A DNA stretch of 64,000 bases, taken from assembly GCA_028280405.1 (NCBI GenBank), contig JANQLW010000032.1, forward strand, positions 9,816-73,815, read 5' to 3'. The position numbers and the translations under genes were made by a program. Under the pieces are notes generated by a model, which saw only the letters and a program-made list of their open reading frames with translations, was not told where the DNA came from and did not search any database. This DNA comes from Bacteroidales bacterium. GTDB lineage: Bacteria; Bacteroidota; Bacteroidia; Bacteroidales; GCA-2711565. Of the stretch, positions 4,126-52,772 are shown piece by piece; the first letter of the stretch is position 1, and every line of letters starts with the position of its first letter.

Positions 4126-4132
4126 AATTTAA

Positions 4133-10505: not shown

Positions 10506-10516
10506 AAATTTTAGTT

Positions 10517-13656: not shown

Positions 13657-13831
13657 ACTTTAAGTTATAAATAAAGAGGCTAACAATTGTTGTTTTTATA
13701 AGGGTGTAATGGCCTGCCTTATGAGGTAAAATATAACTATGTCTTACGTTATAAAAATAAACCTGGGGCCGGTTTGTGATAGGTGAAAAGACTTTATAAT
13801 AAAATTAAAACTAATTAAAATATTATTCAAA

Positions 13832-37992: not shown

Positions 37993-39465
37993 TTAAAATC
38001 TGCTGCTAATTCTTAACTCAACGCCTTTAAAGTCAAGAACCTCATAACAAATTCCTGAATTACATGCCGGGCCTCCTCTTCGGTTTCCGGCAAATAACTG
38101 AATTTGATGCTTCGAATTTATCTTATAGTTGAAGTTTGTCCCTAACCAGGTCCGGTTTGATTCATTATCATTTAACAGAAACGGATCATTAGACCTTTCT
38201 AAAATTAGATTACAACTAAATTTTGATTTTATGGTCATGCCAACTGATAATAACTGATTAGTCACATTACTTCCGAAGCGCTTAAAATTTTGATATTCAT
38301 AATCTAAGTTTATGCCGCTTGTTTTTGTAAGCATCCACTGTGAATTCATGCCAGTGGTAATCCGTTTTTCTTCCTGTTTAAAAGGATCTTTTGCATAATC
38401 GATAAATAATTTTAAGTCATGTTTATCGGCAAGGCCGGTTGAATACTCCAAAAAATATTCCTCAAAAACATATTTTTGTTCAAAATTATTTTCAGCCCTG
38501 GTTATGTTAAAAGTTAAAATGGAAGATTCCGACAAACTGTAAAATAATTCCAGTTGATACCCTTTTTCATTAGTGGGTTGCAATACATGGGTACTCCTGT
38601 TTAGTAATCTGTAAGCATGTTCTTTTACAAGGGCCGGAGGTTCATTTATTCCTGAGCCTATGAGAAAATTATTATATTCCTTAAGTTCTAAACTCATTCC
38701 CAGATTCCCAAAAGAAGAGCTTAAGCTTAAATAAAATCCATAAGCCCCATCATCGTTCAAATTCAAAAAGTTGCCTTTATTTATATTATGAGCTAATTCG
38801 GCATAATAGGACACAGAAGAGAATAGTAATCCCGAAAGATTTAAAGAATTATAATACATGGTTTCAGGGGAGTCATTCTTCAATTGCATTACAGAAACTC
38901 CCAAGGTTTGATTTAAAAAACCATATTCAGTAGTAATAGCAGCCACTTCATCCGGACGCCTTAAGTCATCATCAAAGGTAGGTGGAAACAAGTAATTGAG
39001 CGGGTTTCCATAAAGTACTTTTAGAGAGAAAGATTTATAACGGTATTTTGCACTTACTCCTCGAATATCCTTATGAAAATAATGCCGGGAACGATAGCTT
39101 AAATCTTCAAGAATGGCACCCGGTATTTCAAAAGACCGTAATAATAATCCCCGGCCGATTGTTTCGTAAAAATGACCTGCTTTAATGTCAAACGATTTCG
39201 TTTTATACTGAAGTTTAAACTGACTTAAGCGGGTATAATTTCGATCTTCAATGGGCGAATAAAAATTTTCCAGGGTTATTCCAGCTTTAAATTTCTGAAG
39301 AGAATAATTTAACATAAACCTGTCATAGATCGAAGAAAATGAATCTTCATTATTATCAGGCAGTTTGCCATATTGATATTCCATTAAATTATAAGCACTA
39401 AATTGTGCTTTTACAGATCCAATTATTAGTAATAAACAAATTAGGTATACGTATTTCTTTTTCAT
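37993..39465 (-). CDS. Predicted outer-membrane beta-barrel protein (DUF6029-like), last gene of the thioredoxin operon
   Basis: Signal peptide MKKKYVYLICLLLIIGSVKAQ, alternating beta-strand pattern and a terminal Phe (ELRISSRF). The family name is recalled. Confidence 0.55.
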   Translation of the reverse strand: MKKKYVYLICLLLIIGSVKAQFSAYNLMEYQYGKLPDNNEDSFSSIYDRFMLNYSLQKFKAGITLENFYSPIEDRNYTRLSQFKLQYKTKSFDIKAGHFYETIGRGLLLRSFEIPGAILEDLSYRSRHYFHKDIRGVSAKYRYKSFSLKVLYGNPLNYLFPPTFDDDLRRPDEVAAITTEYGFLNQTLGVSVMQLKNDSPETMYYNSLNLSGLLFSSVSYYAELAHNINKGNFLNLNDDGAYGFYLSLSSSFGNLGMSLELKEYNNFLIGSGINEPPALVKEHAYRLLNRSTHVLQPTNEKGYQLELFYSLSESSILTFNITRAENNFEQKYVFEEYFLEYSTGLADKHDLKLFIDYAKDPFKQEEKRITTGMNSQWMLTKTSGINLDYEYQNFKRFGSNVTNQLLSVGMTIKSKFSCNLILERSNDPFLLNDNESNRTWLGTNFNYKINSKHQIQLFAGNRRGGPACNSGICYEVLDFKGVELRISSRF

Positions 39466-39501
39466 AGGTAATAATTATAAAATCAGCTAAGCAATTAATG
39501 A

Positions 39502-39990
39502 TTAAAGTGAGAGGAGTTTGTCAATTTTATTTTTAATAACTACTTCATCACCAGACTGGAAACCTTCATGAATCCACAAGATTTTACCTGTATCATTTAC
39601 GATAATTAAACTGGGGAAGGCCGAAAGGTTTAATTCTTTCATCAGTTCAGAATCTAAATCAAGCAGGATTGGATACTTTATCTTTAAGACTTTAGTTAAA
39701 GGCTTTACTTTTGCAACAGAGCGAGGGCCATCGCAATTTATTCCGATGACCTTTACTCCTTTTTCCTGATAATCAACACTGATCTTGTTCAGTTCTTTGA
39801 TCGCCTTTTTACATGGTTTACACCAACTTGCCCAGAAATCGATGAGTGTTAATTTTTCTCCTTTTAATTCTTCAAATGATTGATATGAATTATTCAAATC
39901 TTTATAAGAAAAATTACTTATTTGTTGAGCATATAATCCATGGGCAATCAACAATAAGAAAGTAATAAAGAACACTTTTCTTATTCTCAT
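39502..39990 (-). CDS. TlpA-family periplasmic thiol:disulfide oxidoreductase (Cys form)
   Basis: Signal peptide and DFWASWCKPCKKAIKEL. Confidence 0.85.
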   Translation of the reverse strand: MRIRKVFFITFLLLIAHGLYAQQISNFSYKDLNNSYQSFEELKGEKLTLIDFWASWCKPCKKAIKELNKISVDYQEKGVKVIGINCDGPRSVAKVKPLTKVLKIKYPILLDLDSELMKELNLSAFPSLIIVNDTGKILWIHEGFQSGDEVVIKNKIDKLLSL

Positions 39991-40012
39991 AACATTTTAA
40001 ATTAGATGATGA

Positions 40013-40612
40013 TTATTCAATATTATCAAGTAAATTTTTAACCTTGGTTACCACTCCATCAAGGTCACTACTTACATTCTTAGAACCTTTATGATGAATT
40101 TTCCCAGCGGTATCAATTACAATCAGGCGATCATATGTTGTTCCATAATCGGATGCCACTGAAGAAGCATTCTTAAGAAGCGGGAATGTAACATTGGTAG
40201 CATCTTTAAATCCTTGTACCGCAGAATTATTGCCATTCCATTGATCAAGGCCTAAAATTGCAAAATTGCTATCGGATTTATATTCATCGTTCAATTTACT
40301 TTCTACACTCGGAGCAACTGCTCTGCATGAAGATCATCCATTGCCGAAAAAGAATAAGACTACAACTTTATCTTTATAATCAGATAATGAAATGGTACTA
40401 CCTGATAAGGCTGTTAAACTAAAACTTGGTGCTGTAGTTGCACTTCCTCCATCACCATTGCCGTTTCCATTGCCGTTTCCGTTCCCATTTCCATTGTCAG
40501 GATTCATTCCATCCATTTCGTCTCCACTACAAGAAAACATTAACCCTGCAGAGACTAAAATGAAGACAGATTGAAGAAAATACTTGTAAATATCTTTTGT
40601 TAGATTTTTCAT
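40013..40612 (-). CDS. Candidate selenoprotein: thioredoxin-fold lipoprotein with UxxC (in-frame TGA at 40334-40336, residue 93 of 199)
   Basis: Two same-frame ORFs are joined by one TGA, reading ...KVVVLFFFGNG-U-SSC-RAVAP... The lipobox is LMFSC and a (GN)7 linker follows. A hairpin GAGC-AGUU-GCUC starts 10 nt after the UGA (plus-strand coordinates 40312-40323). Confidence 0.6.
40453..40497. repeat. Hexanucleotide tandem repeat encoding the (Gly-Asn)n linker
   Basis: The repeat ccattgccgtttcc encodes NGNGNGNGNGNGNGD just after the lipobox Cys. Confidence 0.7.
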
Positions 40613-40735
40613 GTTTATATGTTTTTTAATTATTTTAATTGTTTTTATTTAGAATGATTCTAAATATACAACAATAATTATTATGGTTTAAACTCAGATT
40701 ATTAAAATCAGCTTATTTAACAAAAAATTAACCAT

Positions 40736-40895
40736 TTCGATTGCTCTATTGTTCTATTGTTAAACTGTTCAATTGTTGAAAGTCCATAAAAACTGATAGC
40801 CTTTTGGCAAGCAATATAACCACCCTTTGCTAAAGCTGCGGGTGGAGATGCAATTTAAACAAGCAATGTAACAATAGAACAATAGAGCAATCGAA
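40736..40895. repeat. MITE-like element with perfect 27-bp terminal inverted repeats
   Basis: TTCGATTGCTCTATTGTTCTATTGTTA at 40736-40762 has its exact reverse complement at 40869-40895. An internal hairpin pairs CCACCC with GGGTGG. Confidence 0.7.
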
Positions 40896-40970
40896 CATGA
40901 AATAATAATTTTTCACCCTTTTTCACCATGCGTTTGTCAACATATTGTAAAAGCGCTTAAAAAAACATTT

Positions 40971-42134
40971 ATGAAAATTACGAGCCAAATATGGAACTTA
41001 TTAGCCCTCATCCTTTCAGGTGAAGCCTCTGAAAAAGACAGGCATGACTTTGAAAGCTGGCTGGCAGAAGCGCCTGAAAATCCTTACTTATTTGAAGAGC
41101 TAAAAGCCATTAGTGAGCAATCCCGTCCCACTGCTAAGTTTCAGACTAAAGATATTGAAGAGGCCTGGGCTCAGGTGAAAGCCCAGACACTTGGCCGAAA
41201 AAAGAAGATTGTTCCATTCCGGAAGTTTGTAAAATATGCTGCAGCTGCTTTTTTGATATTGGGAATCTCAGCTGTTATACTGATGCAACAGAAAAAGATT
41301 ACTCCTACTGTTGAGTTTTCAGAATCAACAGTCAAGCCAGGTAAAAGCAAAGCCATTCTCATATTGGATGATGGAAAAGAAATTGGGCTGACTGATGAAA
41401 AAATCAATTTATCCACTAAAGGCGTTCAGATACAAAACAATGCTAGTGGGCTCAGATACATTGCCGACAATAAAATAACTGAATCCGTAATAAACAAACT
41501 TATTGTTCCTAAAGGTGGGGAGTATCCCCTCACTCTTTCCGACGGCACAAAAATATGGTTAAACTCAGAATCGGAAATTACATATCCTGCTCCTTTTAGT
41601 GGAGAAATACGCAAGGTAAATATTATTAGTGGTGAAGTATATTTTGAAGTAGCTAAAGATACTGCCAAGCCTTTTATCGTCAGTATTAATAATAAAGCTG
41701 AAGTAGAAGTTCTGGGTACCCATTTCAATGTAAATGCATACCATGATGAAGCCGCAATCAAAACTACACTCGTTGAAGGTTCGGTTAAAGTCTCATCACT
41801 AATTACGAATGACAGATCACTGATCACACCCGGCCAACAAGCAGGTATCAATGAAGGCGGATATATTGAGGTAAAAGAAGTGGATACAAAATTATATACT
41901 TCATGGAAAGACGGGCAATTTTACTTCAACGATTGTACATTGGAAGCTTTGATGCATTCTTTATCCCGTTGGTACGATTTTGAGGTAGATTATGAGGATG
42001 AGAGTCTGAAAGGCCTCCGTTTTACCGGACTGATAGAAAAACACAACCCTATCGAATACGGATTAAAATTGATAAGCTATACCACTGTGGTATCGTTTAA
42101 GATCGTAGGGAATGCTATTATAGTGAAAAAGTAA
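40971..42134 (+). CDS. FecR family anti-sigma factor
   Basis: TM segment AAAAFLILGISAVILM and FecR core VPKGGEYPLTLSDGTKIWLNSESEITYP. Confidence 0.85.
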   Translation: MKITSQIWNLLALILSGEASEKDRHDFESWLAEAPENPYLFEELKAISEQSRPTAKFQTKDIEEAWAQVKAQTLGRKKKIVPFRKFVKYAAAAFLILGISAVILMQQKKITPTVEFSESTVKPGKSKAILILDDGKEIGLTDEKINLSTKGVQIQNNASGLRYIADNKITESVINKLIVPKGGEYPLTLSDGTKIWLNSESEITYPAPFSGEIRKVNIISGEVYFEVAKDTAKPFIVSINNKAEVEVLGTHFNVNAYHDEAAIKTTLVEGSVKVSSLITNDRSLITPGQQAGINEGGYIEVKEVDTKLYTSWKDGQFYFNDCTLEALMHSLSRWYDFEVDYEDESLKGLRFTGLIEKHNPIEYGLKLISYTTVVSFKIVGNAIIVKK

Positions 42135-42351
42135 TTTGAAAAGGAGACAACTTGACAATGAACGTAATTTTAGAAATAAGACAGCAGATATTGACTTTAG
42201 AAATCCAACATCCAAAAAAGAAAGGAGGAATATCGATTAACTAACAATAAAGCTTAAAACAAAAAAAGGGAGATGCTCCAACATCCCCCTAAATAAACAA
42301 TTCACAAACCGAATAACTAAAACAATTTATGAACTTGTAAACTACAAAAGT

Positions 42352-45300
42352 ATGAAAAAAAACGTACTATTGAATTTTGGGGTTTTTCCCAATAATTGGA
42401 AAAAAATCCTATTGATTATGAAGCTAAGTTTGATCTTTATTTTTTCTGCGATGCTGGCTACAGCTGCCAACAGCTATGGGCAGGAAGGGAAAATTAGTTT
42501 GTCGCTAAAAAACACAAATATTGAGCAGGTACTTAAAAACATTACTGCTCAAACCGGCTATGAATTTATTTACAATAATGATGCCTTTGATGCCGAACTT
42601 AAGGTGGATATTGATGTAAAACAGGCTGACATCCAAAATGTGCTTACACAACTGCTGGATGAGCAATATAGTTATAAGATAGAGGATAAATTTATTGTAA
42701 TCTTTCCGGCATCCTCCACTTCAGAATTAGCATCCATTACCGTAACCGGTAAAGTAACGGACTCAGATGGAAAACCCCTGCCCGGTGCTACTGTATTAAT
42801 AAAAGGCACCTTTAAGGGTATAATCACGGATCAGGAAGGAAAATATAAAATCTCTGAGGTAACCCCTGAGACAATATTGGTATTTTCTTATATCGGTTTT
42901 GCAAAGCAGGAAATTACGGTAGGCAACAAGACCACCATCAATGTTACCTTGGAGCAATCTGCTACCGAATTGGAAGAAGTGACGATTAACGCCGGCTATT
43001 ATACCGTAAAACAAAAAGAAGCAACAGGAAATATCACTAAGGTAGCTGCCAAAGCAATAGAACAGCAGCCGGTAACCAACCCCTTACAAGCCCTGCAAGG
43101 CAGAACCCCGGGTGTTTTTATTTCTCAAAGAACCGGGCTCCCCGGAAGCGGCTTTGATATAGAAATAAGGGGTCGAAACAGCATTAGAAATTGGTCAAAT
43201 AATGATGGAAATCTTCCTTTATACATCATAGATGGAGTCCCTTATGTTTCCGAGTCACTTTCTACAAATCAGTTTGGTTCTATGATTTCTCGTTCAAGTC
43301 CTTTGAACAATATTAATCCCTCTGATATTGAAAGTATTGAAATTCTGAAGGATGCGGATGCAACGGCCATTTATGGTTCGAGGGGAGCCAACGGGGTGGT
43401 ATTGATCACAACGAAAAAGGCCAGGGCCAGCCAGACAAGCCTAGAAATAAACCATTGGATGGGAATTGAACAGGTGCCGCGCAAAATGGAGCTGTTAAAT
43501 ACCGAGCAATACCTGGAAATGCGCCTGGAGGCCTTTAAAAATGACGGGCAAACACCCGATCCAAATAATCCACAGCACTTGGATGTGTTGGAATGGGGGA
43601 GCCGCTATACAGATTGGCAGGAAGAGTTCATAGGAGGAACCGCGAACCTCTCCAACACAAATATCGTCATATCCGGTGGTAATGAAAATACAAGGTTTTC
43701 GCTTGGAGGAACCCTGTACCGCACAACCACCGTTTTCCCGGGAGATTTTTCCTATTTGCGTGGATCAGGCCGCTTTAACCTGAATCATACGAGCCATAAT
43801 AAGAAGTTCAATATAGACTTTACAAGCTTTTACAATACAGGCAGAAATGAGCTTCCTAATGGTGATCTTACTCGTGCTGCTTTAACCCGAGTACCTAATG
43901 CTCCCTCCCTTTTGAACGAAGATGGGAGCCTTAAGTGGGATGATCCTATTGGAGGAAATCCGTTAGCAACACTAAGGAGACAATATCTTGTAAAAACAAG
44001 TAATTTTAATACTAATCTAAGGCTATCCTGGCAATTTACCCCAAAGCTGAAATTAAGCACAAGTTTAGGCTATAACCGGTTACAGCAAAGCGAATTAAGG
44101 ACTAGACCTATCTCAGCTAACAATCCTGCATGGGGTAATACTACCGGAGAGGCTGACTTTACGGAGGGATTGAATTATTTATGGATTATCGAACCCCAAC
44201 TTAAATATACTACTCAATTAGGACCCGGAAGGCTTGGAGTCATTATAGGGGGGACTTTTCAGGAAAATATCAATGAACTTGAAACCACAAGGGCAAGAGG
44301 TTTTCAGGACGATAATTCATTAGAAAACATTGCTGCGGCCGGCGAAACATCCATTCTGGAATATCGCTATACTCAGTATCGATACAGCGCTATTTACGGA
44401 CGTATCAATTACAAGCTGGATGATAAGTACATCCTTAACCTAACTGGCCGTAGAGATGGTTCCAGTAAATTCGGGTCCGACAAAAAATTTGGGAATTTCG
44501 GAGCTATAGGAGCGGCTTGGATCTTTTCAAAGGAAGAATTTTTCAAAGAAAATTCGATATTAAGTTTTGGAAAACTAAGAAGTAGTTACGGTATTATCGG
44601 GAGCGATCAGATCCCGGATTATCAGTACCTGAGCTCCTATCGTTATACAGGTGATTCATACCAGGGAACCCCTTCGCTCTTACCGAACAGAATTGCCAAT
44701 CCTGAATTTAGCTGGGAATCAACCAGGCAATTGGAAGTGGGACTGGAACTGGGTTTCTTTGACGACAGGATCAATACATCTGCAAGCTATTTCAGAAAAC
44801 GGACATCCAATCAACTGGTAGGTTTTGACCTACCCGATATTACCGGCTTCTCCTCCTTTCAATTCAATATGCCGGCTACGGTTGAAAACAAAGGCTGGGA
44901 ATTTTTACTCTCGACCACAAACATCCGTACCAAAGATTTCAGGTGGACTTCCAGCTTAAATCTAAGTGCCTTACGTAATAAACTCATTGAATACCCGAAT
45001 ATTGAAAGTTCCCCTTATGCTAATCGATATCGTATTGGTAAGTCTCTTTACATAAGAGGCTTTTATGACACCTCTGTGGATCCCGAAATTGGTATGTATA
45101 CCTTTGAAGATCTCAATGGAGATGGAAGGGTTACTTATGCAGATGACCGGAGATTTTATGACTTCAGGAAAGATTACTTCGGTGGTTTTCGAAATAATCT
45201 CAGATACAAAAATATTGAGCTGGATTTTCTTTTCCGCTTTGTCAAACAAAAAGGACAAAGTTACTTTACATACTTTGGGCCTCAGGGTTTTCCCGGAAAC

Positions 45301-45645
45301 CAGCCAACAGCAGTTTTAGATCGTTGGCAACAAGCCGGAGATGTAAGCGATATCCAACAATTCACCCAAGGTTTTACATCAGCCCTATGGAAGTGGTTTG
45401 ATGCATTCTATAATTCGGATGAAATAATTATAAATGCTTCCTTTATAAGGCTGGAAAATGTTTCCTTAGCCTACAACTTCCCAGCTCAGCTTCTTAAACA
45501 AATAAATGTAAAACAATTAAGGATTTATTTGCAGGTCCAGAATCTTTTTACCATTACGAATTTTAAAGGCTTGGATCCTGAAACTTGGTATATGTCCTTG
45601 CCACGCCTAAGGAGTATTACAGCAGGTATTCAGTTAAAATTTTAA
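42352..45645 (+). CDS. SusC/RagA-type TonB-dependent transducer with an STN domain (paralog of 7179-10505)
   Basis: STN segment (LKNTNIEQVLKNITAQTGYEFIY). It shares blocks with the first SusC (FSYIGFAKQEI.VGNKTTINVTLEQSATELEEV, IEILKDADATAIYGSRGANGVVLITTKK) and ends in Phe. Confidence 0.9.
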   Translation: MKKNVLLNFGVFPNNWKKILLIMKLSLIFIFSAMLATAANSYGQEGKISLSLKNTNIEQVLKNITAQTGYEFIYNNDAFDAELKVDIDVKQADIQNVLTQLLDEQYSYKIEDKFIVIFPASSTSELASITVTGKVTDSDGKPLPGATVLIKGTFKGIITDQEGKYKISEVTPETILVFSYIGFAKQEITVGNKTTINVTLEQSATELEEVTINAGYYTVKQKEATGNITKVAAKAIEQQPVTNPLQALQGRTPGVFISQRTGLPGSGFDIEIRGRNSIRNWSNNDGNLPLYIIDGVPYVSESLSTNQFGSMISRSSPLNNINPSDIESIEILKDADATAIYGSRGANGVVLITTKKARASQTSLEINHWMGIEQVPRKMELLNTEQYLEMRLEAFKNDGQTPDPNNPQHLDVLEWGSRYTDWQEEFIGGTANLSNTNIVISGGNENTRFSLGGTLYRTTTVFPGDFSYLRGSGRFNLNHTSHNKKFNIDFTSFYNTGRNELPNGDLTRAALTRVPNAPSLLNEDGSLKWDDPIGGNPLATLRRQYLVKTSNFNTNLRLSWQFTPKLKLSTSLGYNRLQQSELRTRPISANNPAWGNTTGEADFTEGLNYLWIIEPQLKYTTQLGPGRLGVIIGGTFQENINELETTRARGFQDDNSLENIAAAGETSILEYRYTQYRYSAIYGRINYKLDDKYILNLTGRRDGSSKFGSDKKFGNFGAIGAAWIFSKEEFFKENSILSFGKLRSSYGIIGSDQIPDYQYLSSYRYTGDSYQGTPSLLPNRIANPEFSWESTRQLEVGLELGFFDDRINTSASYFRKRTSNQLVGFDLPDITGFSSFQFNMPATVENKGWEFLLSTTNIRTKDFRWTSSLNLSALRNKLIEYPNIESSPYANRYRIGKSLYIRGFYDTSVDPEIGMYTFEDLNGDGRVTYADDRRFYDFRKDYFGGFRNNLRYKNIELDFLFRFVKQKGQSYFTYFGPQGFPGNQPTAVLDRWQQAGDVSDIQQFTQGFTSALWKWFDAFYNSDEIIINASFIRLENVSLAYNFPAQLLKQINVKQLRIYLQVQNLFTITNFKGLDPETWYMSLPRLRSITAGIQLKF

Positions 45646-45656
45646 ACAAAGTCATT

Positions 45657-47069
45657 ATGAAAAATACAATCTATACAACTAAGCTGACATATAAAAAGCC
45701 ATTGAGCTTTCTAACGATCATTTTTTGTCTATGCCTAATCTTTTCATGCGAAAAATTCGTAGACATTGACTCCCCCATTACGGAAGTCATTACCGAAGAT
45801 GTTTTTTCCAGTGATGCTACCGCAAATGCTGCTATCATAGGGATGTACTCCAATATGTTTGATAATTCCAGTATTTCAACCCAGTTAACGCGGGAAACAA
45901 GTCTAGCCTCAGATGAGTTGATCGATGTTTCAACGCAATTACCTTTGGGACAATTTTTCAATAACGGCTTAACCTCTGATAATTCTCATGTCTCCCGATT
46001 TTGGACTCAACTATACAAACTCATTTTCTCTGCCAATGATGCGATTGAAGGATTGAAAATTTCAAATCGGGTATCGAAAAACTTAAAAAATCAACTCATG
46101 GGCGAAGCTTATTTTATGAGGGCTTTTTGTCATTTCTATCTAGTTTCTTTATGGAGTGACGTTCCTTTGGTAACTTCTACGGATTATAGAGTGAATAGAC
46201 TAGCCTCAAGAAGCCCGGAAGTTGATGTATTTCAACAGATCATTGATGATTTGACGGAGTCTAAAAGCCTTTTATCGGAAGATTATTCTTTTTCTGGTGG
46301 AGAACGGTTCCGTCCGAATAAATTTACAGCTTCTGCTTTGTTGGCAAGGGTTTACCTGTATACAGAGGCCTGGGAAAATGCAGAAACGGAATCGACCATG
46401 GTCATCAATCATTCAGCCTATGAACTCTTATCCGATTTAAATGCGATTTTTCTTGAAAACAGCCGGGAGGCCATTTGGCAATTGCAATCATTTAATAATG
46501 AAGGTACCAATACCCATGATGGAAACATATATATCATTCTGCAAACACCTCCAACAATTGTAACATTGAGAGATGAACTTGCTGATTCGTTTGAATCCAA
46601 TGATGACAGAAAAAATCATTGGATTGACAGTATCTCTGATGATTCTCAAACCTATTATTTTGCTTATAAATATAAAATCCGGGGTGCTAATACGACGCTT
46701 CCTATCACAGAAGCTATGGTATTCTTCCGCTTGGCTGAGCAATACCTGATCCGGGCTGAAGCACGTGCAAATACCGGAAATATTTCCGGAGCCCAGGCCG
46801 ATATTAATATGATCCGTAACCGGGCCGGCCTTCCGAACACAACAGCAACTGATCAGGCATCCTTGCTGCTGGCCATTGAAAAGGAGAGAAAGCATGAACT
46901 CTTTACAGAAGGCAGCCACCGATGGATGGATTTAAAACGAACAGGCCGGATAGATGAGGTCTTAGGTTTAGTCAAACCGGGTTGGGACCCGCATGACAAA
47001 CTATTTCCCATCCCGAAAGATGAACTTACGGATAATCCGAATTTGACTCAAAATCCGGGATATAATTAA
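45657..47069 (+). CDS. SusD/RagB family lipoprotein
   Basis: The preferred ATG at 45657 gives MKNTIYTT... with the lipobox LIFSCEKF. Motifs RAFCHFYLVSLW and RWMDLKRTG. The C-terminus is NLTQNPGYN. Confidence 0.9.
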   Translation: MKNTIYTTKLTYKKPLSFLTIIFCLCLIFSCEKFVDIDSPITEVITEDVFSSDATANAAIIGMYSNMFDNSSISTQLTRETSLASDELIDVSTQLPLGQFFNNGLTSDNSHVSRFWTQLYKLIFSANDAIEGLKISNRVSKNLKNQLMGEAYFMRAFCHFYLVSLWSDVPLVTSTDYRVNRLASRSPEVDVFQQIIDDLTESKSLLSEDYSFSGGERFRPNKFTASALLARVYLYTEAWENAETESTMVINHSAYELLSDLNAIFLENSREAIWQLQSFNNEGTNTHDGNIYIILQTPPTIVTLRDELADSFESNDDRKNHWIDSISDDSQTYYFAYKYKIRGANTTLPITEAMVFFRLAEQYLIRAEARANTGNISGAQADINMIRNRAGLPNTTATDQASLLLAIEKERKHELFTEGSHRWMDLKRTGRIDEVLGLVKPGWDPHDKLFPIPKDELTDNPNLTQNPGYN

Positions 47070-47168
47070 AGGCTCTTCGGCGAAGGCACGTTTGGCGAAG
47101 GCTTCGGCCTTCGTCAATAACCACACAACCACTAAATAGATCATTAAAAATTAAATAAATAGAAAAAA

Positions 47169-48446
47169 ATGAGAAGAAAAACATTATTCCTCACTTTTGC
47201 CTTATTTACCAGCACATTATTTGCTCAAAACAATGCCGGGCAATCAACAATTTCCATTGGAGATGAGGTACCCAATCTGAAATTTTCAAAAATGGTTAAC
47301 TATCCTGCAAAAGAGATAGCCTTGCATGAGCTGAAAGACAAACTAATTATTCTTGATTTTTGGGCCAAATGGTGATGGGGTTGTATCAAAGACTTTCCAA
47401 GGTTGGATAAGCTACAACGACAATTTGACGGGGAAATTCAAATTTTGCCCTATGCGGAAGAAAAGCTGGAAAAAGTTGAAGATATTTTTGCCAGGATAAA
47501 AAAACAAATGGATCTTATTTTGCCCAGTGCTTCGGAGACAAGCATTCCCAAAGTAATTAACTCGAATAAGAAAATATGGATATACAAAGGTAAATTAATT
47601 GCTAAAACCGGAACACTTGAAGTAAATGCTGAAAATATTGAAGCCGTATTGAACGGTGGTGAGATTAAGTATAAAGGACTCAGAAATAAAAAAAAGAAAG
47701 AGTTTGAACATTTAAATGATTTTAACGGACTGCAATTAAATCATTCCGTATTGAGGAAAAATATTGGGGAAAAATTCCAATCAGCATTATCCAAAGGAAT
47801 GAAAGGGTATGATGTTGACTCGAAATATAAAATGCCCAAAGAAGATGATAAGGTTTACGGAAGAAGATACATTAATTTTACTATTTCTCTACTATATATT
47901 AGAGCTTATGATCTTCCTTCCATATCAGAATGGGTTATTGAAGTCGCGGATAAAAAACATTTTTATCCCGGGTATGGAATGGAAAATGCATCCAATACCT
48001 ATTGCTATGAAATAATGGCTTCGAATGATGAAAACATGGGTTTTAGAGATATCCATAAAGAGGCTAATAAAATAATGCAGAAAGACCTGGAAAAGGTATT
48101 TAACATTACAGTAAAAAAAGAGAAAAGAAATATTAAGGTATACGTACTTAGGAAAATGAAGGGTTATGAGAAATTGATTAGCAAAGGCGGTGAAAAAAAA
48201 ATGGAAGCAACAGCCTTTTTTATCAATTATCAAAACATGCCTTTTTCTGCTTTGGTAAAAAAAATTGAATACTGTTTGGAAACAGGTTTTTTAATTGATG
48301 AAACCGGGCTTGATATAAATGTTGACCTTGACATTAATGTACGAACCTATGATTATAAAGAAATGAAACAAGCCCTAAAAGAATATGGCCTTGAATTAAC
48401 AATAGAAGAAAGAGAACGGGAAGTGTTTGTGATAAAAGAAATTTAA
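47169..48446 (+). CDS. Candidate selenoprotein: TlpA-like thioredoxin domain with UxxC (TGA at 47373-47375, residue 69 of 425) fused to a DUF3738/TIGR03435-like domain
   Basis: Same-frame ORFs 47169-47375 and 47403-48446 read ...LIILDFWAKW-U-WGC-IKDFPRLDKLQ... This aligns with the WCGPC and WCKPC motifs of the Cys paralogs at 12052-13656 and 39502-39990. A signal peptide is present and a candidate hairpin lies at 47380-47418. Confidence 0.6.
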
Positions 48447-48474
48447 GACGTTTGAAGTTTATGTTTATGTCTAC

Positions 48475-48590
48475 GTCATCCTGTCTGCCAGAGGTCGAAG
48501 CTAGCTCTTACCCTAATCGATTGCAACCACGCCTCGACAAGCTCGGCGGCCTGGGTCATTGAGCGAAGCGTAGCGTAGTCGAAATGCGAC
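48475..48590. repeat. Degenerate member of the GTCATCCTG / GAGCGAAGCG repeat family
   Basis: GTCATCCTG..., CCTCGACAAGCTCG and GTCATTGAGCGAAGCGTAGCG lie between the two candidate selenoprotein genes. Confidence 0.4.
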
Positions 48591-48648
48591 CAATACCAAC
48601 AAGGCCGAACGAAATAGAGATAAAAAAACAAAAATTAATTTATAAATA

Positions 48649-50526
48649 ATGAAAACTAAATACTTATCATTTTTACTGGGAATAGTACTTTCATCAACAC
48701 TATTTGCCCAGCATTCAAAAACAGACAAACAAAGATCAACCAACTTTCCAATATTCCCTGAAATTCTAAATACTAATATTCCGGGAGCACCTTTATTAGG
48801 GAAGCCGGTACTGATAAATGGCAAGAAACAGGAGATCCGGGTTGAAAAGCACGGGCTGGCTTACCCGGCCCTTTTTGACTGGGACAGGGATGGAAAAAAA
48901 GATCTTTTGATTGGCGAATTTGAAACCGGCCAAACAGGTTCAAATATCAAAGTATACCTTAACCGGGGATCCAACAAAAAGCCCAAATATTCCGGTGAAT
49001 ACTTTTATGCCCTGAATACTAAAGGCGATACGATTACGACTCACCAGTGGTGATGTATTGGCACACATCCTCAGTTTGTGGATTTAAATAATGACGGCTA
49101 TATGGATATGTTAAGCGGCCAGTACAATCCCGGAAAAATTTCGTGGTGGAGAGGATCGGAAAATGGTTTTCTTCCAAGGGTTTTTGTTGAACAAAAGGGC
49201 TATGTTGAAGGTGCCCAACCGAATTATGATATGGCTCCCTGGGATCCTAAATCAACTAACTATTGGGAATTTACCTCTGCCGGATTTGCAGATTTTAATG
49301 GTGATGGTTTACAGGATTTATTTGTAGGAGGGTTTAGGGAGTTCCGTGTAGCTTTAAATAAAGGGACAAAAACGGATCCGAAATTTGGATTACGTAAATA
49401 TTTGTTAGGGCTTGACGGAGAACCTCTATCTATAAAAAGGTCCGGTAAAAAAGAAATTGAAGAAAGCCGTAAAAAAGGACAGTATCTCAACCTTTCAGGG
49501 GTATCTAAAAGTTTTATAAACCCTGTTGATTGGGATGGTGATGGAGTACTGGACTTACTAATTACCCATTCTTATTCAAAAAAAGGGGGGAATCCCGTTG
49601 AATTTTTTCGTGGTGTTCAAACAGATAAAGGTCTGCGATTTGAGCCCCCTAAGCCTTTATTTACAGCTAAAAAAGGGCAAAAGACTTTCCCGGGCTGTTG
49701 CCCCAATATTAAGGTGGCGGATTATAATAATGATGGGGTGCTGGATTTGATCTTTGGCCTTTCTATTCCAACGATTAATGGGTTTGAAATTGATTCATCA
49801 GTTGCATGGAATTATAATGATAATCTGAAGCTTAATACACCTGGAAAAGATGTAGGCCGACAAATTAAAATTTATAGCAATAAACAAATTGCTGAAATAA
49901 AGAAAAGGCTTGATGGTAACCCTTCTCCGGATTTAAGACGATCGTATATAGGAGATTTGGAAGATAGTAAGTATATCACATTACGTCACCGGGGGTATAT
50001 ATATGTGATGCTGGGGAGAAAGAATCCTGTAAAAGCCGTAGCTGAAAAACTAAAAGCTAAGGCAGAGGTTAAACGAAAGGTCATAAAAAATGAGACCATC
50101 AAAACAGGTGGAGGCAATAGCCCCCTACAATTTGAGGTAAAAGCTCCCCAGCGTATAAAATACAATAAAGAATACCTGGTAGAAGTTGTTATGAATTTTG
50201 ATCAAGGATGGTATGGCTACGCCAATACAAAAGGGAATATTTCCCTTGGTTTAATTCCAACAAAAATTGAGTATAAATTCCCCGAAGGCTTTGAATTGGT
50301 TGGAAAAGCCGTAGAACCTAAACCTCTGCAAAAAAGGGGGACTGATGTGTATCAAAACATGAACCAGGTCTTCTTTCAGAAATTCAAAGTACCCTATATC
50401 CAGGGAAAAGAAGGAACAGGTGAATACACCATTGCAGTCATTGTTCATTACCAGGTTTGTGATGAGAACGGATGTTTGCCGCCAACAAAGGAAAATATAA
50501 AAATGAAAGCTTGGTTATTCTGGTAA
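48649..50526 (+). CDS. Candidate selenoprotein: secreted FG-GAP/VCBS-repeat protein (TGA at 49051-49053, residue 135 of 625) with a DsbD-alpha-like C-terminal domain
   Basis: The same-frame ORFs read ...TITTHQW-U-CIGTHPQFVDLNNDGYMDM... There are five DxDxDG repeats (FDWDRDGKKDLL, VDLNNDGYMDML, ADFNGDGLQDLF, VDWDGDGVLDLL, ADYNNDGVLDLI). The split cuts one repeat. The C-terminus HYQVCDENGCLPP resembles the DsbD N-terminal domain motif. Confidence 0.55.
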
Positions 50527-50736
50527 ATGATAATAAAATAAATAAAAATGATAGCTATGTAAAAAGGTGTGGGCTTCCTTGATAGGATTCCAGGAGCTCC
50601 CCAGGGGGCTCGGAGAACTTCTCTGAGATTCCCCTCTTCCTTATTGAAGACTGAAAGACTAAAGGACGAAAAAATGTTTGTAGTAATAGACCTGATTGCC
50701 TCAGGTAAGTTTGTCAATAGAAGGTATCACATGCAA

Positions 50737-51273
50737 TTATAAAAATGAGCCTAATTCCTTTCTCATAATCTTATAAGCAATGCCAATCTGCGTTTTGACT
50801 GTATTGATGGAAATATTCAGTACTTGTGCAATTTCGGCATATTTGAGTCCGGCTACATTACTCATGATAAATATCTTTCGGCATTTTTTGGGCAGTTTAA
50901 GTAATGCCTTCCTTAGCCTTTTATGTGTGTCTTCTATTAAGCTTTCATCTTCCGAATGAGTTTCTGCTTCTTGTGTTTGACGATATTGTGTAAATACTCT
51001 TTCCACAAAAGAATCATGGTTTATATAATTAATGCAGCTATTTCTCACAGCCTGGCGTGCATAGGATTGGAATGAACCTTTAATAGTTAGTTTGTCCCTT
51101 TTTTCCCAGAACTTGATAAAAAATTCCTGAACAATATCATCTGCCGTTTGATTGTCTCTGATAAAGATAAAAGCATGCTCGCATAGCATTTCATAATGTA
51201 AACGGAACAATGACTCGAATATAGTTTCAGTGATTCCCTGATCGGGATCGATATGTTCATGATTCTTTGTCAA
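50737..51273 (-). CDS. ECF sigma factor, convergent with the end of the SusC/SusD/selenoprotein locus
   Basis: Region 2 DIVQEFFIKFW. Region 4 LKYAEIAQVLNISINTVKTQIGIAYKIMR. Confidence 0.85.
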   Translation of the reverse strand: MTKNHEHIDPDQGITETIFESLFRLHYEMLCEHAFIFIRDNQTADDIVQEFFIKFWEKRDKLTIKGSFQSYARQAVRNSCINYINHDSFVERVFTQYRQTQEAETHSEDESLIEDTHKRLRKALLKLPKKCRKIFIMSNVAGLKYAEIAQVLNISINTVKTQIGIAYKIMRKELGSFL

Positions 51274-51464: not shown

Positions 51465-52514
51465 TTAAGACTCTTGTTTTTTAGGAAAAACCAGTGATGC
51501 AATCATACTTGAACCTAATATTCCCAGCACCACATATAGTGAATGTATGGTTTCAAAGCCTATGTCTTTCAGCCAATGGTGAATAATAAGCTTAACTCCT
51601 ATAAAAGTTAACAGAACAGCCAGCCCCACTTTTAAATAATGGAAATAAGTTATTGCATTCATTAATAAGAAGAATAGTGCCCTTAAACCAATAATGGCGA
51701 AAACATTTGAGAAGAAAACAATGTACGGATCTTTAGTAATAGAAAATATTGCAGGAACTGAATCAACGGCGAAAATCACATCTGTAAATTCAATGACTAA
51801 TAAAACAATAAATAAAGGGGTGATAAATCTTTTTCCATTTTTTTTAATAAAAAATTTTCGTCCTTTATAATTCGGATCAACAGAAAAATATTTAGAAGCA
51901 AAACGGACAACCGGATGATTAGCAGTATCTATTTTGTCTTCTTGATTTCTTCCAATAAACATTTTAATACCGGTATAAATCAATAAACCGCCAAATAAAT
52001 ATAAAGTCCATACAAACTCCTGAATTAAAGCAGAAGCCGTAAAAATGAATAAGAATCTCATTACTACAGCGCCTAATATACCCCAGAATAATACACGATG
52101 ATAATACTGTTTTTCAATTCCAAAAGCCATGAAGATCATCATTATTACAAAAACATTATCTATAGAAAGCGCTTTTTCAATTAAGTAACCTGTAATATAT
52201 TCAAGGCTGAGATTATTTTTATAAAGACGAAGAGCTTCTTCAAAATTTAATCCGGAATAATCTATTGGATGGCCGAACTTATCAATGATCATTTTCAACT
52301 GATCAAATTCTGTAATACCGTGAATGAGTTGACCATTTGTTTTGACTAATACATAAAATCCCAATGCAAATAAGACCCATATAATGGTCCAGATTAAAGA
52401 TTCCTTAGAGGAAATAACATGAGTTTTCTTATTAAACACTCCAAGGTCAATTAATAGAATGGCTAAGATAAAAACTAAAAATAATCCAAAAAATAAAAGT
52501 TCATTCACGTTCAT
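51465..52514 (-). CDS. TerC family integral membrane protein
   Basis: Polytopic protein. The TerC-like start MNVNELLFFGLFLVFILAILLIDLGVF sets the preferred start at 52514. The family call is recalled. Confidence 0.75.
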   Translation of the reverse strand: MNVNELLFFGLFLVFILAILLIDLGVFNKKTHVISSKESLIWTIIWVLFALGFYVLVKTNGQLIHGITEFDQLKMIIDKFGHPIDYSGLNFEEALRLYKNNLSLEYITGYLIEKALSIDNVFVIMMIFMAFGIEKQYYHRVLFWGILGAVVMRFLFIFTASALIQEFVWTLYLFGGLLIYTGIKMFIGRNQEDKIDTANHPVVRFASKYFSVDPNYKGRKFFIKKNGKRFITPLFIVLLVIEFTDVIFAVDSVPAIFSITKDPYIVFFSNVFAIIGLRALFFLLMNAITYFHYLKVGLAVLLTFIGVKLIIHHWLKDIGFETIHSLYVVLGILGSSMIASLVFPKKQES

Positions 52515-52772
52515 TACACAAATATCAAAAATCGATTTACAAAAGTAGCTAAAGATATTTATACTCAATAAAAATATTTCTCAGTTCTTTGATGTTTTGG
52601 GAATTATCTCATAAAGTTTTAGTAAGTTTGGCATCCGGTAGAAATTGTGTGTAAAAACACATTAAAAAACCGGGAATTGCAATTTTTGAATAAAATTAGC
52701 TGCATTTTAGTAGGTAAATTTTCAAAAAAAGCATTTTTGTTAGACTTTTTGTGAATTTTTAGAAAAAAAGAA

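What the first reader, a model, noticed from the sequence alone, without database searches (positions are those of the whole stretch)
37993..51273. An ECF-sigma/FecR-controlled SusC/SusD import locus whose cargo is an extracytoplasmic selenol/thiol redox module
Within 13 kb, two divergent operons share one promoter region. The minus-strand operon encodes a UxxC thioredoxin-fold lipoprotein, a TlpA (CxxC) protein and an outer-membrane barrel. The plus-strand operon encodes FecR, an STN-bearing SusC, SusD, a UxxC TlpA fused to a DUF3738-like domain, and a TGA-containing FG-GAP protein with a DsbD-alpha-like end. An ECF sigma gene closes the locus. There are no glycoside hydrolases, so the usual polysaccharide-utilisation logic does not apply. 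Every cargo protein has a signal peptide or lipobox and a redox motif. Three of them carry an in-frame TGA, two at the redox position of a CxxC motif. This points to an envelope redox relay coupled to TonB-dependent uptake and trans-envelope signalling. Possible substrates are disulfide-rich peptides or oxidised sulfur/selenium compounds, but that is speculation. I know of no functional description of such a module.
Basis: partly seen in the sequence, partly recalled or inferred. Interest (0 to 1): 0.9.

Follow-up and report, generated by a model that had tools for sequence, protein, structure and literature searches.

The report
Selenoprotein-bearing SusCD envelope redox locus
A Bacteroidota genome fragment carries three secreted thiol-redox genes whose catalytic cysteine codon is replaced by an in-frame TGA, most likely read as selenocysteine; two of them sit in a widespread but uncharacterised nutrient-importer locus, and one appears to be an undescribed selenoprotein family.

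Summary
All the genes and domains exist at the stated coordinates. The three in-frame TGAs are the only credible read-through candidates in the 64 kb window.

Each TGA aligns with an invariant redox cysteine in Cys-type homologues: FFFGNxCxxC, WCGPC and QWCCIG. The reading frames are conserved on both sides of the TGA. Seven other FG-GAP genes from at least three lineages have TGA at the same position. Each is followed by a nearly invariant hairpin (CCACA-GUU-UGUGG) at SECIS distance. Selenocysteine is therefore the best reading, but no Sec machinery could be checked.

The "one locus" reading is only partly right. The plus-strand operon belongs to a widespread Bacteroidota locus class: sigma-FecR-SusC-SusD-TlpA-like-FG-GAP/DsbD-alpha, often with DUF4843 and PKD-like lipoproteins. 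Its accessory genes are overwhelmingly thiol-redox proteins and not CAZymes. The minus-strand lipoprotein/TlpA/DUF6029 cassette is an independent module found elsewhere without SusCD.

The mechanism, a periplasmic reductive relay acting on imported substrate, is inferred. UxxC Trx/Prx-like selenoproteins are already known. The FG-GAP "W-U-C" selenoprotein and Sec use in a Bacteroidota SusCD locus appear to be new.

The parts
37993..39465 (-). DUF6029 outer-membrane beta-barrel with a signal peptide. Last gene of the minus-strand cassette.
   Evidence: Pfam PF19494, E = 4e-24. The same gene follows the lipoprotein and TlpA genes in L043-L046.
39502..39990 (-). Periplasmic TlpA/ResA-like thiol-disulfide oxidoreductase, Cys form (WCKPC).
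   Evidence: Pfam AhpC-TSA/Redoxin/Thioredoxin_8. Best PDB sequence matches are ResA and StoA.
40013..40612 (-). Thioredoxin-fold lipoprotein with in-frame TGA at 40334-40336 (GNG-U-SSC). Lipobox is LMFSC followed by an acidic stretch and an NG-repeat linker.
   Evidence: Translation. Pfam AhpC-TSA, E = 8e-16. Cys homologues have invariant FFFGNxCPSC and an invariant lipobox Cys.
40310..40325 (-). SECIS-like stem-loop CAGAGC-AGUU-GCUCCG, starting 11 nt after the U of UGA.
   Evidence: RNAfold -9.4 kcal/mol, z = -1.5. Matches the shared descriptor, which only 0.77% of all TGA trinucleotides in the window match.
40736..40895 (.). 32-nt inverted repeat (94% complementary) around a 96-nt spacer, inside the intergenic region between the divergent operons. 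Could be a regulatory hairpin or an invertible element.
   Evidence: the repeat finder pair I1. Unique in the window, with 0 matches expected by chance. Absent from the other 52 loci.
40971..42134 (+). FecR-type anti-sigma factor.
   Evidence: Pfam FecR, FecR_C and DUF4880.
42352..45645 (+). SusC/RagA TonB-dependent transporter with an N-terminal STN signalling domain.
   Evidence: Pfam STN, CarbopepD_reg_2, Plug and barrel. NCBIfam TIGR04056, 739 bits.
45654..47069 (+). SusD/RagB lipoprotein.
   Evidence: Pfam SusD-like_3 and SusD_RagB.
47169..48446 (+). TlpA/ResA-fold domain fused to a DUF3738 (TIGR03435)-like domain, with in-frame TGA at 47373-47375 (WAKW-U-WGC). Type-I signal peptide.
   Evidence: Translation. 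Pfam and NCBIfam. Cys homologues have an invariant WC..C pair, e.g. DFWxxWCxPC (C73 and C76 in alignment A5). P0122 and P0123 are truncated at the same point. AF2 model of Cys homologue P0124 has a ResA-like N-domain, TM 0.74.
47394..47409 (+). SECIS-like stem-loop UUUCCA-AGGU-UGGAUA, with an extended lower stem.
   Evidence: Present in the MFE structure, but its energy is not better than shuffles, z = -0.4. Matches the shared descriptor.
48649..50526 (+). FG-GAP beta-propeller fused to a C-terminal DsbD-alpha-like domain (YQVCDENGCLPP), with in-frame TGA at 49051-49053 (HQW-U-CIG). Type-I signal peptide.
   Evidence: Translation. Pfam FG-GAP_3 and DsbD_N. W-C-C-x-G and the two DsbD_N cysteines are invariant in 100 homologues. 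AF2 model of P0002 has pLDDT 93, with Foldseek hits to the PVL FG-GAP propeller and to DsbD-alpha 1l6p/1jpe.
49067..49083 (+). SECIS-like stem-loop AUCCuC-AGUUU-GUGGAU. One U.U mismatch compared with the homologues.
   Evidence: The same hairpin sits at the same offset in L002, L003 (two genes), L026, L047 and L039 (two genes). Synonymous-codon identity is 52/56 inside the hairpin versus 142/298 outside, Fisher p = 3e-11. The window copy is not in the MFE structure.
50737..51273 (-). ECF sigma factor, convergent with the FG-GAP gene. Presumed partner of FecR.
   Evidence: Pfam Sigma70_r2, r4_2 and ECF. In related loci the sigma gene lies directly upstream of FecR.

Best explanation
The region holds two adjacent but separable Bacteroidota envelope thiol-redox modules, and three of their redox proteins are selenoproteins.

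Module A is 40971-51273. It is one member of a widespread, functionally uncharacterised locus class: ECF sigma, FecR anti-sigma, STN-SusC, SusD, a TlpA-like reductase and an FG-GAP propeller with a C-terminal DsbD-alpha-like domain.

Module B is 37993-40612. It is a conserved three-gene cassette: a thioredoxin-fold lipoprotein, a periplasmic TlpA and a DUF6029 outer-membrane barrel.

Shown:
- In this organism the attacking cysteine of both CxxC motifs, and the first cysteine of the invariant vicinal CC of the propeller, are encoded by UGA.
- The frames are conserved on both sides of each UGA.
- Each UGA is followed by a stem-loop with an A-G-K-U apical loop at SECIS distance.
- The propeller's hairpin is conserved across phyla.

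Inferred mechanism:
- A ligand bound by SusCD is imported with TonB energy.
- Through STN and FecR it releases the ECF sigma factor and induces the operon.
- In the periplasm, electrons come from a CcdA/DsbD-type membrane transporter encoded elsewhere.
- They pass to the UxxC TlpA-DUF3738 protein, then to the DsbD-alpha-like domain, then to the vicinal Sec-Cys site on the propeller.
- That site reduces the imported oxidised substrate. A disulfide-containing peptide or small disulfide/peroxide-type compound is the leading guess.
- Sec raises nucleophilicity and resistance to over-oxidation.

My sub-confidences are: Sec decoding about 0.85, conserved locus class about 0.9, relay as drawn about 0.4, peptide substrate about 0.25.
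For: Sec/Cys pairing at invariant catalytic positions holds in all three families. These are the only in-frame TGAs in 64 kb.

The N-terminal part is 63-74% identical and the C-terminal part 46-64% identical among Sec-type FG-GAP orthologues, with no other stops.

TGA occurs at the same codon in L002, L003 (two genes), L026, L047 and L039 (two genes). The CCACA-G(U/G)U-UGUGG hairpin is conserved in genomes from 34% to 59% GC. Synonymous sites are frozen only inside the hairpin.

All three window TGAs fit one stem-loop descriptor that only 19 of 2477 TGA trinucleotides fit.

L026 carries a second Sec-type Trx protein (W-U-GPC) in the same locus type.

Neighbourhood conservation is shown. Cargo families are PKD_2, DUF4843, DUF4369, Thioredoxin, Thioredoxin_7/DsbH and AhpC-TSA, with DsbD_TM in 2 loci.

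The DsbD-alpha assignment rests on Pfam and fold. The TlpA fold rests.

Peptidases occur in sister loci: DPP-IV at window 13832-15961 and an S8 peptidase in L052.
Against: - No selA, selB, selC or selD, and no tRNA of any kind, is in the window or in the related loci scanned, so the machinery is unverified. An early survey found no Sec-decoding trait in Bacteroidetes (PMC1794560).
- The window's own FG-GAP hairpin has a U.U mismatch and is not in the MFE structure.
- The TlpA hairpin is not more stable than shuffles.
- The L026 Trx UGA has no clear hairpin.
- The hairpin descriptor was designed after seeing the data.
- No membrane electron donor is encoded in the locus.
- The sigma gene is at the far end and convergent, unlike in related loci.
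- Peptidases are not among the common cargo families, so the substrate guess is weak.
- Modules A and B are not co-conserved.
Confidence: 0.6

Rival explanations
1. The redox proteins do not process imported cargo. SusCD imports an unrelated nutrient such as peptides or glycans. The TlpA-like and FG-GAP/DsbD-alpha proteins are envelope maintenance or defence factors, for peroxide or disulfide stress or for keeping the locus's own cysteine-rich lipoproteins reduced. They are co-regulated only because uptake exposes the envelope to oxidants.
For: Locus partners such as the DUF4369-propeller lipoproteins themselves carry conserved CC motifs. TlpA/ResA-type proteins classically reduce specific endogenous proteins, such as apocytochromes, ScoI and CoxB (titles of the PDB matches; established knowledge). 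No substrate-specific enzyme is conserved in these loci.
Against: Tight, order-conserved linkage to SusC/SusD across many families is unusual for housekeeping redox proteins. The propeller's invariant WCC site and the fused DsbD-alpha domain look like a dedicated catalytic unit.
Confidence: 0.28
2. The whole 13 kb is a single regulon in which both divergent operons share one promoter region and answer to the ECF sigma factor at 50737-51273.
For: The operons are divergent, with a 358-bp gap that holds a striking 32-nt inverted repeat. Both operons have acquired Sec forms in this organism.
Against: The minus-strand cassette occurs without any SusCD/FecR/sigma neighbour in other genomes. None of 34 related FG-GAP loci showed a DUF6029 neighbour in the phmmer map. 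No promoter evidence was obtained.
Confidence: 0.15
3. UGA is recoded here but not as selenocysteine. It could be read as cysteine through a SelB/SECIS-like route, or through a lineage-specific change in UGA use.
For: None of the 42 long ORFs in the window ends with TGA: 37 end in TAA and 5 in TAG. Sec machinery is unverified. UGA-to-Cys recoding tRNAs have been proposed in other bacteria (my recollection of the literature, not checked here).
Against: Relatives also use TGA stops rarely, about 5-10%, so 0 of 42 is only mildly unusual. Of 123 Cys-type codons (80 TGT, 40 TGC, 3 TGA), the 3 TGAs all fall on catalytic redox positions, as expected for Sec. TGA never replaces Trp or Gly here.
Confidence: 0.06
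4. The three TGA-containing genes are pseudogenes inactivated by TGY-to-TGA nonsense mutations.
For: TGT or TGC to TGA is a single-base change. A real nonsense TGA exists in this family at an invariant Trp codon in Prevotella locus L035. Gene callers split all three genes.
Against: Three of three hits fall on the catalytic residue and nowhere else. The downstream frames of 106, 356 and 490 codons are intact and conserved. The identical TGA is present in eight genes from several lineages. An RNA hairpin is conserved downstream.
Confidence: 0.03

Closest known systems
Prx-like / Trx-like UxxC bacterial selenoproteins (Zhang and Gladyshev families: 'Prx-like thiol:disulfide oxidoreductase', 'thiol:disulfide interchange protein')
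   Same: A thioredoxin fold with Sec replacing the N-terminal Cys of CxxC. Cys homologues vastly outnumber Sec forms. Function is inferred only from the fold (PMC2398784 table 2; PMC13188914 table).
   Different: Here they are a lipoprotein and a TlpA-DUF3738 fusion, encoded in Bacteroidota envelope loci. No NCBIfam selenoprotein model reaches its cutoff on them. The phylum was once reported to lack the Sec trait (PMC1794560).
DsbD / ScsB - TlpA / CcmG / periplasmic peroxiredoxin reductive pathways
   Same: A DsbD-alpha-like Ig domain with two conserved cysteines, alongside secreted TlpA/ResA-fold CxxC proteins. The logic is thiol-disulfide exchange relays in the envelope (Pfam and Foldseek; pathway logic from established knowledge).
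   Different: The DsbD-alpha domain is fused to an FG-GAP propeller rather than to the DsbD membrane domain. No membrane domain is present in the locus; DsbD_TM appears in only 2 related loci. The terminal acceptor is an uncharacterised vicinal Cys-Cys/Sec-Cys site.
ECF-sigma/anti-sigma-regulated SusC/SusD polysaccharide utilisation loci (and FecIRA-type trans-envelope signalling)
   Same: An STN-bearing SusC, SusD, a FecR-like anti-sigma factor and an ECF sigma factor.
   Different: There are no glycoside hydrolases or other CAZymes in the window locus, and none among the 25 commonest cargo families of 112 neighbouring ORFs. The cargo is thiol-redox proteins. Peptide-importing RagAB-type SusCD systems are a closer functional analogy, but this is untested.
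Vicinal Cys-Sec redox centre of mammalian thioredoxin reductase (GCUG)
   Same: Sec and Cys are adjacent, so they could form a selenenylsulfide and receive electrons from another redox centre in the same protein. This is an analogy from established knowledge.
   Different: The order is U-C, not C-U. The site is internal to a beta-propeller rather than on a flexible C-terminal tail. There is no flavin domain and no sequence relationship.
Multi-selenoprotein operons (SAO and Tso systems; grdAB, prdBC)
   Same: Several selenoprotein genes are clustered, presumably serving one redox pathway (PMC13188914, section 'Selenoprotein operon').
   Different: The protein families differ and the location is the envelope. 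The genes are linked to a TonB-dependent importer and spread over two separable modules.

Membership tests
Bacterial selenoprotein gene (UGA/SECIS/SelB decoding) | In-frame UGA aligned with Cys in homologues | tested here: met
   The U aligns with invariant C93 of FFFGNxCxxC, with the first Cys of WCGPC and with C135 of QWCCIG.
Bacterial selenoprotein gene (UGA/SECIS/SelB decoding) | Coding sequence conserved on both sides of the UGA, and the same UGA present in independent orthologues | tested here: met
   For the FG-GAP gene, eight genes with TGA at the same codon were verified at DNA level, with both parts conserved. For TlpA-DUF3738 there is only indirect evidence, from truncated proteins P0122 and P0123. 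No Sec-type orthologue of the lipoprotein was found.
Bacterial selenoprotein gene (UGA/SECIS/SelB decoding) | Stem-loop with G(U) in the apical loop a short distance downstream of the UGA | tested here: met
   Strong comparative support for the FG-GAP gene. A plausible hairpin for the lipoprotein, z = -1.5. A weak one for TlpA, z = -0.4. The shared descriptor is rare among all TGA trinucleotides (post hoc). No Rfam family matches.
Bacterial selenoprotein gene (UGA/SECIS/SelB decoding) | selA, selB, selC (tRNA-Sec) and selD present in the same genome | not testable with these tools
   There is no tRNA in the window or in L001-L003 and L026 other than one tRNA-Thr. Only one contig of the organism is available, and its species is absent from the genome collection.
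Polysaccharide utilisation locus (PUL) | Adjacent susC/susD pair | tested here: met
   TIGR04056 at 739 bits, plus SusD_RagB.
Polysaccharide utilisation locus (PUL) | Carbohydrate-active enzymes encoded in the locus | tested here: not met
   No CAZyme domain appears in any locus protein, and none among the top 25 families of 112 neighbouring ORFs in related loci.
ECF sigma / FecR / STN-transducer trans-envelope signalling | STN domain on the transporter, FecR-type anti-sigma factor and an ECF sigma gene in the locus | tested here: met
   Pfam STN E = 1.6e-11, FecR/FecR_C, and Sigma70_r2/r4_2. That this sigma is the cognate partner, and that it is inducible, was not tested.
TlpA/ResA/CcmG secreted thiol-disulfide oxidoreductases | Thioredoxin fold, a CxxC (here UxxC) active site and an export signal | tested here: met
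   Pfam and PDB matches to ResA, StoA and TlpA. Signal peptides or a lipobox were read from the sequence.
Peroxiredoxin (AhpC/TSA sensu stricto) | Peroxidatic Cys in a PxxxT/SxxC motif | tested here: not met
   The lipoprotein has FFFGNG-U-SSC, which is a CxxC-type site with no T/S at position -3. It is therefore a TlpA/ResA-like oxidoreductase and not a true peroxiredoxin.
DsbD electron-transfer system | DsbD-alpha domain with two catalytic cysteines | tested here: met
   Pfam DsbD_N E = 5.5e-6. C604 and C609 are invariant. Foldseek hits 1l6p and 1jpe with target-normalised TM 0.46-0.53.
DsbD electron-transfer system | DsbD-beta/CcdA membrane domain and a Trx-like gamma domain in the same protein or locus | tested here: not met
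   None is present in the window locus. DsbD_TM was seen in only 2 of about 33 related loci.

The most novel reading that the evidence does not exclude
FG-GAP/DsbD-alpha 'W-U-C' proteins are an unrecognised selenoprotein family that spans several phyla. The family has its own conserved SECIS and is systematically mis-annotated as N-terminally truncated 'MDLDxDG...' proteins. Bacteroidota SusCD loci whose cargo is thiol/selenol oxidoreductases form a distinct class of TonB-dependent 'redox utilisation loci'. These import an oxidised sulfur- or selenium-containing or disulfide-rich substrate, reduce it in the periplasm, and switch on through trans-envelope signalling.
Probability: 0.3. Interest if true: 0.8.

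Novelty: new variant of a known kind. Interest (0 to 1): 0.6.

Why it matters
If the TGAs are decoded as Sec, four things follow.

- It documents selenoprotein use in Bacteroidota envelope systems. An early survey found no Sec-decoding trait in this phylum (PMC1794560).
- It adds a selenoprotein family: a beta-propeller with a vicinal Sec-Cys site fed by a DsbD-alpha domain. This family is absent from the 2026 catalogue of prokaryotic selenoproteins, and no curated NCBIfam model covers it.
- Sec marks catalytic redox residues. It therefore identifies the invariant WCC motif as the active site of a large, uncharacterised protein family.
- It points to a redox function for a very common class of non-glycan SusCD loci that occurs in gut Prevotella, Butyricimonas, Muribaculaceae and Rikenellaceae as well as in marine and soil Bacteroidota. 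That gives experimentalists a concrete entry point.

It also exposes a routine annotation error, because these genes are split or truncated in public databases.

Tried and rejected
- tRNA and Rfam scans found no tRNA-Sec and no RNA family at gathering or E <= 10 thresholds.
- Exact-sequence contig look-ups for SusC, TlpA, P0122 and P0123 returned nothing. Cluster look-up gave no names.
It was rerun with the exact post-TGA fragment.
- The organism was not found in the species-representative genomes, so Sec machinery and taxonomy below phylum are untested.
- The metagenome pattern scan for Sec-type FG-GAP genes returned a single hit.
- The sigma-70 promoter and terminator scan was at chance level. 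No TAnnTTTG motif occurs in the divergent intergenic region.
- The Sec-type Trx gene in L026 shows no convincing hairpin.
- A genetic-code change (TGA = Trp or Gly) was considered and rejected. There are 220 TGG codons against 3 TGA, and all 3 TGAs fall at Cys positions.
- The lack of TGA stop codons was judged not significant against relatives.
- The true-peroxiredoxin reading of the lipoprotein was rejected on motif grounds.
- Literature searches for SusC/SusD + TlpA, for DUF4843, and for FG-GAP + selenocysteine found no functional study. The BT2261-64/MAFF papers proved unrelated to redox cargo.
- Foldseek gave only generic FG-GAP propeller, neuraminidase-like and DsbD-alpha matches, with no functional analogue.

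Full report
**1.

On the minus strand:
- a DUF6029 barrel (37993-39465);
- a CxxC TlpA/ResA-like protein (39502-39990);
- an AhpC/TSA-fold lipoprotein (40013-40612).

On the plus strand:
- FecR (40971-42134);
- an STN-bearing SusC (42352-45645);
- SusD (45654-47069);
- a TlpA domain fused to DUF3738 (47169-48446);
- an FG-GAP protein ending in a DsbD_N domain (48649-50526).

An ECF sigma gene (50737-51273, minus strand) closes the region.

Read-through translations show one TGA in each of three genes, in the contexts FFFGNG-U-SSC, FWAKW-U-WGC and THQW-U-CIG. I scanned all six frames of the 64-kb window for TGA flanked by long open frames. Apart from antisense noise inside other genes, only these three appear. 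The N-termini are type-I signal peptides or, for the first protein, a lipobox. No CAZyme domain is present.

**2. The TGAs behave as selenocysteine codons**

Each TGA aligns with an invariant redox cysteine in the Cys-type relatives.
- The lipoprotein family has invariant FFFGNxC(P)SC and an invariant lipobox cysteine.
- The TlpA-DUF3738 family has DFWxxWCxPC, with only five invariant columns, two of which are these cysteines.
- The FG-GAP/DsbD_N family has W-C-C-x-G invariant in 20 and in 100 aligned sequences. The two cysteines of the DsbD-alpha-like YQxCxxxxCLPP motif are also invariant.

For the FG-GAP gene I verified TGA at exactly this codon in seven further genes:
- L002;
- two paralogues in L003, which comes from the same sequencing sample as the window;
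- a Rikenellaceae MAG (L026);
- a high-GC metagenome contig (L047);
- two tandem genes in a 59%-GC MAG (L039).

Sequence on both sides of the TGA is conserved: 63-74% identity before it and 46-64% after it, with no other stops.

All these genes share a hairpin, AUCCACA-GUU-UGUGGAU or close variants such as CCACA-GGU-UGUGG, starting 13-16 nt after the UGA. Among the five Bacteroidota Sec-type genes, synonymous codon pairs are identical in 52 of 56 cases inside the hairpin codons. Elsewhere the figure is 142 of 298, giving Fisher p = 3e-11 (the pairs are not independent). This is the signature of an RNA-level constraint exactly where a bacterial SECIS belongs.

The other two window genes also have stem-loops with A-G-K-U apical loops. 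A descriptor covering all three is met by only 19 of 2,477 TGA trinucleotides in the window. That descriptor was defined after seeing the data.

Many database homologues begin 'MDLDxDG...'. That is the gene call expected when translation is started at the GTG inside the hairpin. It suggests Sec forms are common and mis-annotated.

A contrasting true nonsense mutation exists in Prevotella locus L035, where TGA replaces an invariant Trp.

**3. Caveats on Sec**

- No tRNA of any kind is in the window or in the related loci scanned other than one tRNA-Thr, and no Rfam family matches. The window holds no sel gene among the proteins examined.
- The organism's species is not in the genome collection, so the machinery cannot be checked.
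- The window's own FG-GAP hairpin carries a synonymous CCA-to-CCT change that creates a U.U mismatch, and it drops out of the MFE structure.
- The TlpA hairpin is no more stable than shuffles.
- The second Sec-type gene in L026 (Trx_7-TPR, W-U-GPC) has no clear hairpin.
- None of 42 long ORFs in the window ends in TGA. Relatives use TGA stops at only about 5-10%. In addition, TGA never replaces Trp or Gly here, with 220 TGG against 3 TGA. I therefore treat a general code change as unlikely.

**4. Genomic context: two modules, not one**

*Module A.* I annotated 34 Bacteroidota loci containing FG-GAP/DsbD_N homologues with phmmer, using the window's proteins as queries. The recurrent order is sigma - FecR - SusC - SusD - (TlpA-like) - FG-GAP/DsbD_N - (TlpA-like).

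Of 22 loci with at least 8 kb of upstream sequence, 18 have SusC, 19 have SusD, 15 have a TlpA-like gene within 2.5 kb, 12 have FecR and 10 have sigma. The last two counts are limited by flank length.

Carriers include Marinifilum, Carboxylicivirga, Maribacter, Flagellimonas, Seonamhaeicola, Lacibacter, Puia, Muribaculaceae, Rikenellaceae, Butyricimonas and many Prevotella MAGs.

The 112 remaining same-strand ORFs in these loci are dominated by the following families:
- PKD_2 (13 ORFs);
- DUF4843 (12);
- DUF4369 (12);
- Thioredoxin (11);
- Thioredoxin_7/DsbH (9);
- AhpC-TSA (8);
- DsbD_TM (2).

No CAZymes are among the top 25 families.

The closest Cys-type FG-GAP homologue (64% identity) sits in SusC-SusD-DUF4843-PKD_2-DUF4369/AhpC-AhpC-Peptidase_S8-FG-GAP. 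The closest Cys-type TlpA-DUF3738 sits in sigma-FecR-SusC-SusD-TlpA without an FG-GAP gene.

The window itself contains a second locus of this kind at 5007-15961. Its order is sigma, FecR, SusC, SusD, a Cys-type TlpA-DUF3738 (WCGPC) and a DPP-IV family peptidase.

*Module B.* The minus-strand trio of lipoprotein, TlpA and DUF6029 barrel is found as an intact cassette in Carboxylicivirga and Jiulongibacter. There it lies next to unrelated genes. It was not seen beside any of the related FG-GAP loci.

Both have been converted to Sec forms in this lineage.

**5. Structure and mechanism**

An AlphaFold2 model of the 64%-identical Cys homologue P0002 is confident, with pLDDT 93. Its PDB neighbours are the seven-bladed FG-GAP lectin PVL and, for the C-terminal domain, E. 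coli DsbD-alpha (1l6p, 1jpe).

The model of the Cys-type TlpA-DUF3738 homologue P0124 has pLDDT 89. Its N-terminal domain is complete and ResA/TlpA-like, with target-normalised TM 0.74. The C-terminal half has no solved analogue among the top hits.

From these folds, and from the established logic of DsbD/ScsB-TlpA/CcmG relays, I infer a periplasmic electron path: membrane CcdA/DsbD encoded elsewhere, then the TlpA-like UxxC protein, then the DsbD-alpha-like domain, then the vicinal Sec-Cys site on the propeller, then the substrate. Induction would run through STN-FecR-sigma on ligand binding. None of these steps is demonstrated.

The peptidases in sister loci hint at disulfide-containing peptides as substrate. 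However, peptidases are not common cargo.

A serious rival is that these reductases maintain endogenous envelope proteins, or defend against oxidants, and do not process cargo at all.

**6. Comparison with what is known**

UxxC Prx-like and Trx-like selenoproteins are long established (PMC2398784, table 2; PMC13188914, table). Multi-selenoprotein operons are a recognised theme (PMC13188914, 'Selenoprotein operon' section). Two of the three selenoproteins are therefore new members of known kinds.

The lipoprotein is not a true peroxiredoxin, because it lacks a PxxxT/SxxC motif.

The FG-GAP 'W-U-C' protein is not mentioned in the 2026 review: it contains neither 'FG-GAP' nor 'Bacteroid'. No curated NCBIfam model covers it.

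Zhang et al. 2006 detected no Sec-decoding trait in the Bacteroidetes genomes then available (PMC1794560).

I found no functional study of SusCD + TlpA/DUF4843/PKD-like loci.

**7. Verdict**

The three genes are most probably genuine selenoprotein genes, at about 0.85. The SusCD-redox association is real and widespread. The mechanism is a reasoned inference.

In novelty this is a new variant of known kinds: Sec forms of Trx-fold oxidoreductases, and a non-glycan SusCD locus. It has one probably undescribed selenoprotein family. I score interest at 0.6.

Noticed in passing
window 40736-40895: A 32-nt inverted repeat (94% complementary; TTCGATTGCTCTATTGTTCTATTGTTA...) flanks a 96-nt segment in the gap between the divergent operons. 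It is unique in the window and absent from all other fetched loci. It could be an invertible promoter segment, an operator or a structured leader. The two available assemblies have the same orientation.
   Followed up: partly
window 5007-15961: A second ECF sigma - FecR - SusC - SusD locus in the same window. Its cargo is a Cys-type TlpA-DUF3738 protein (WCGPC, 558 aa) and a DPP-IV/S9 peptidase. This is a paralogous, all-cysteine counterpart of the locus under study.
   Followed up: partly
whole window (42 long ORFs): No gene ends in TGA: 37 end in TAA and 5 in TAG. Related Bacteroidota loci use TGA for roughly 5-10% of stops, so this is only mildly unusual. It would be worth checking genome-wide.
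   Followed up: partly
L026 2213-8327 and 3964 (Rikenellaceae MAG CAYJHM010000074): The same locus type carries a Thioredoxin_7/TPR protein with in-frame TGA (YTTW-U-GPC). It also has three paralogous DUF4369-propeller lipoproteins with conserved vicinal-cysteine motifs (PCCGILDFD, HGCCNPVS). Vicinal CC on beta-propellers seems to be a recurring theme in these loci.
   Followed up: partly
L039 6727 and 10005; L047 1485: FG-GAP genes from non-Bacteroidota, high-GC contigs also have TGA-TGC-(A/G)TC-GG followed by the CCACAG(G/T)T(T/C)GTGG hairpin. In L039 there are two such genes in tandem. The Sec form of this motif therefore crosses phylum boundaries.
   Followed up: partly
proteins P0362, P0369, P0371, P0382, P0392, P0393, P0401, P0408, P0418, P0434, P0445: Many cluster representatives of the family start 'MD[LI][DN]xDG', about 9 residues after the Sec position. 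That is what a gene caller produces when it starts at the GTG inside the hairpin. This points to systematic truncation of Sec-type genes in public protein sets. Their DNA was not retrievable here.
   Followed up: partly
L035 7030-7032 (Prevotella MAG): A TGA replaces the invariant Trp of the DWN motif in an otherwise Cys-type FG-GAP/DsbD_N gene. It is probably a genuine nonsense mutation or a sequencing error, and it is a useful contrast to the Sec-position TGAs.
   Followed up: no
window 51465-52568 (-): A TerC-family membrane protein gene lies directly upstream of the ECF sigma gene on the same strand, 191 bp away. The sigma factor may therefore be co-transcribed with it and not with the SusCD operon.
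   Followed up: no
window 42267-42290: A 10-bp GC-rich hairpin followed by a T-run on the minus strand lies in the FecR-SusC intergenic gap. Its role on either strand is unknown.
   Followed up: no
L003 (same sample as the window) 62-8000: Two further Sec-type FG-GAP/DsbD_N paralogues flank an ABC transporter (ABC_tran + ABC_transp_aux). They are followed by another sigma-FecR-SusC set. If this contig is from the same organism, its selenoproteome includes several copies of this family.
   Followed up: partly
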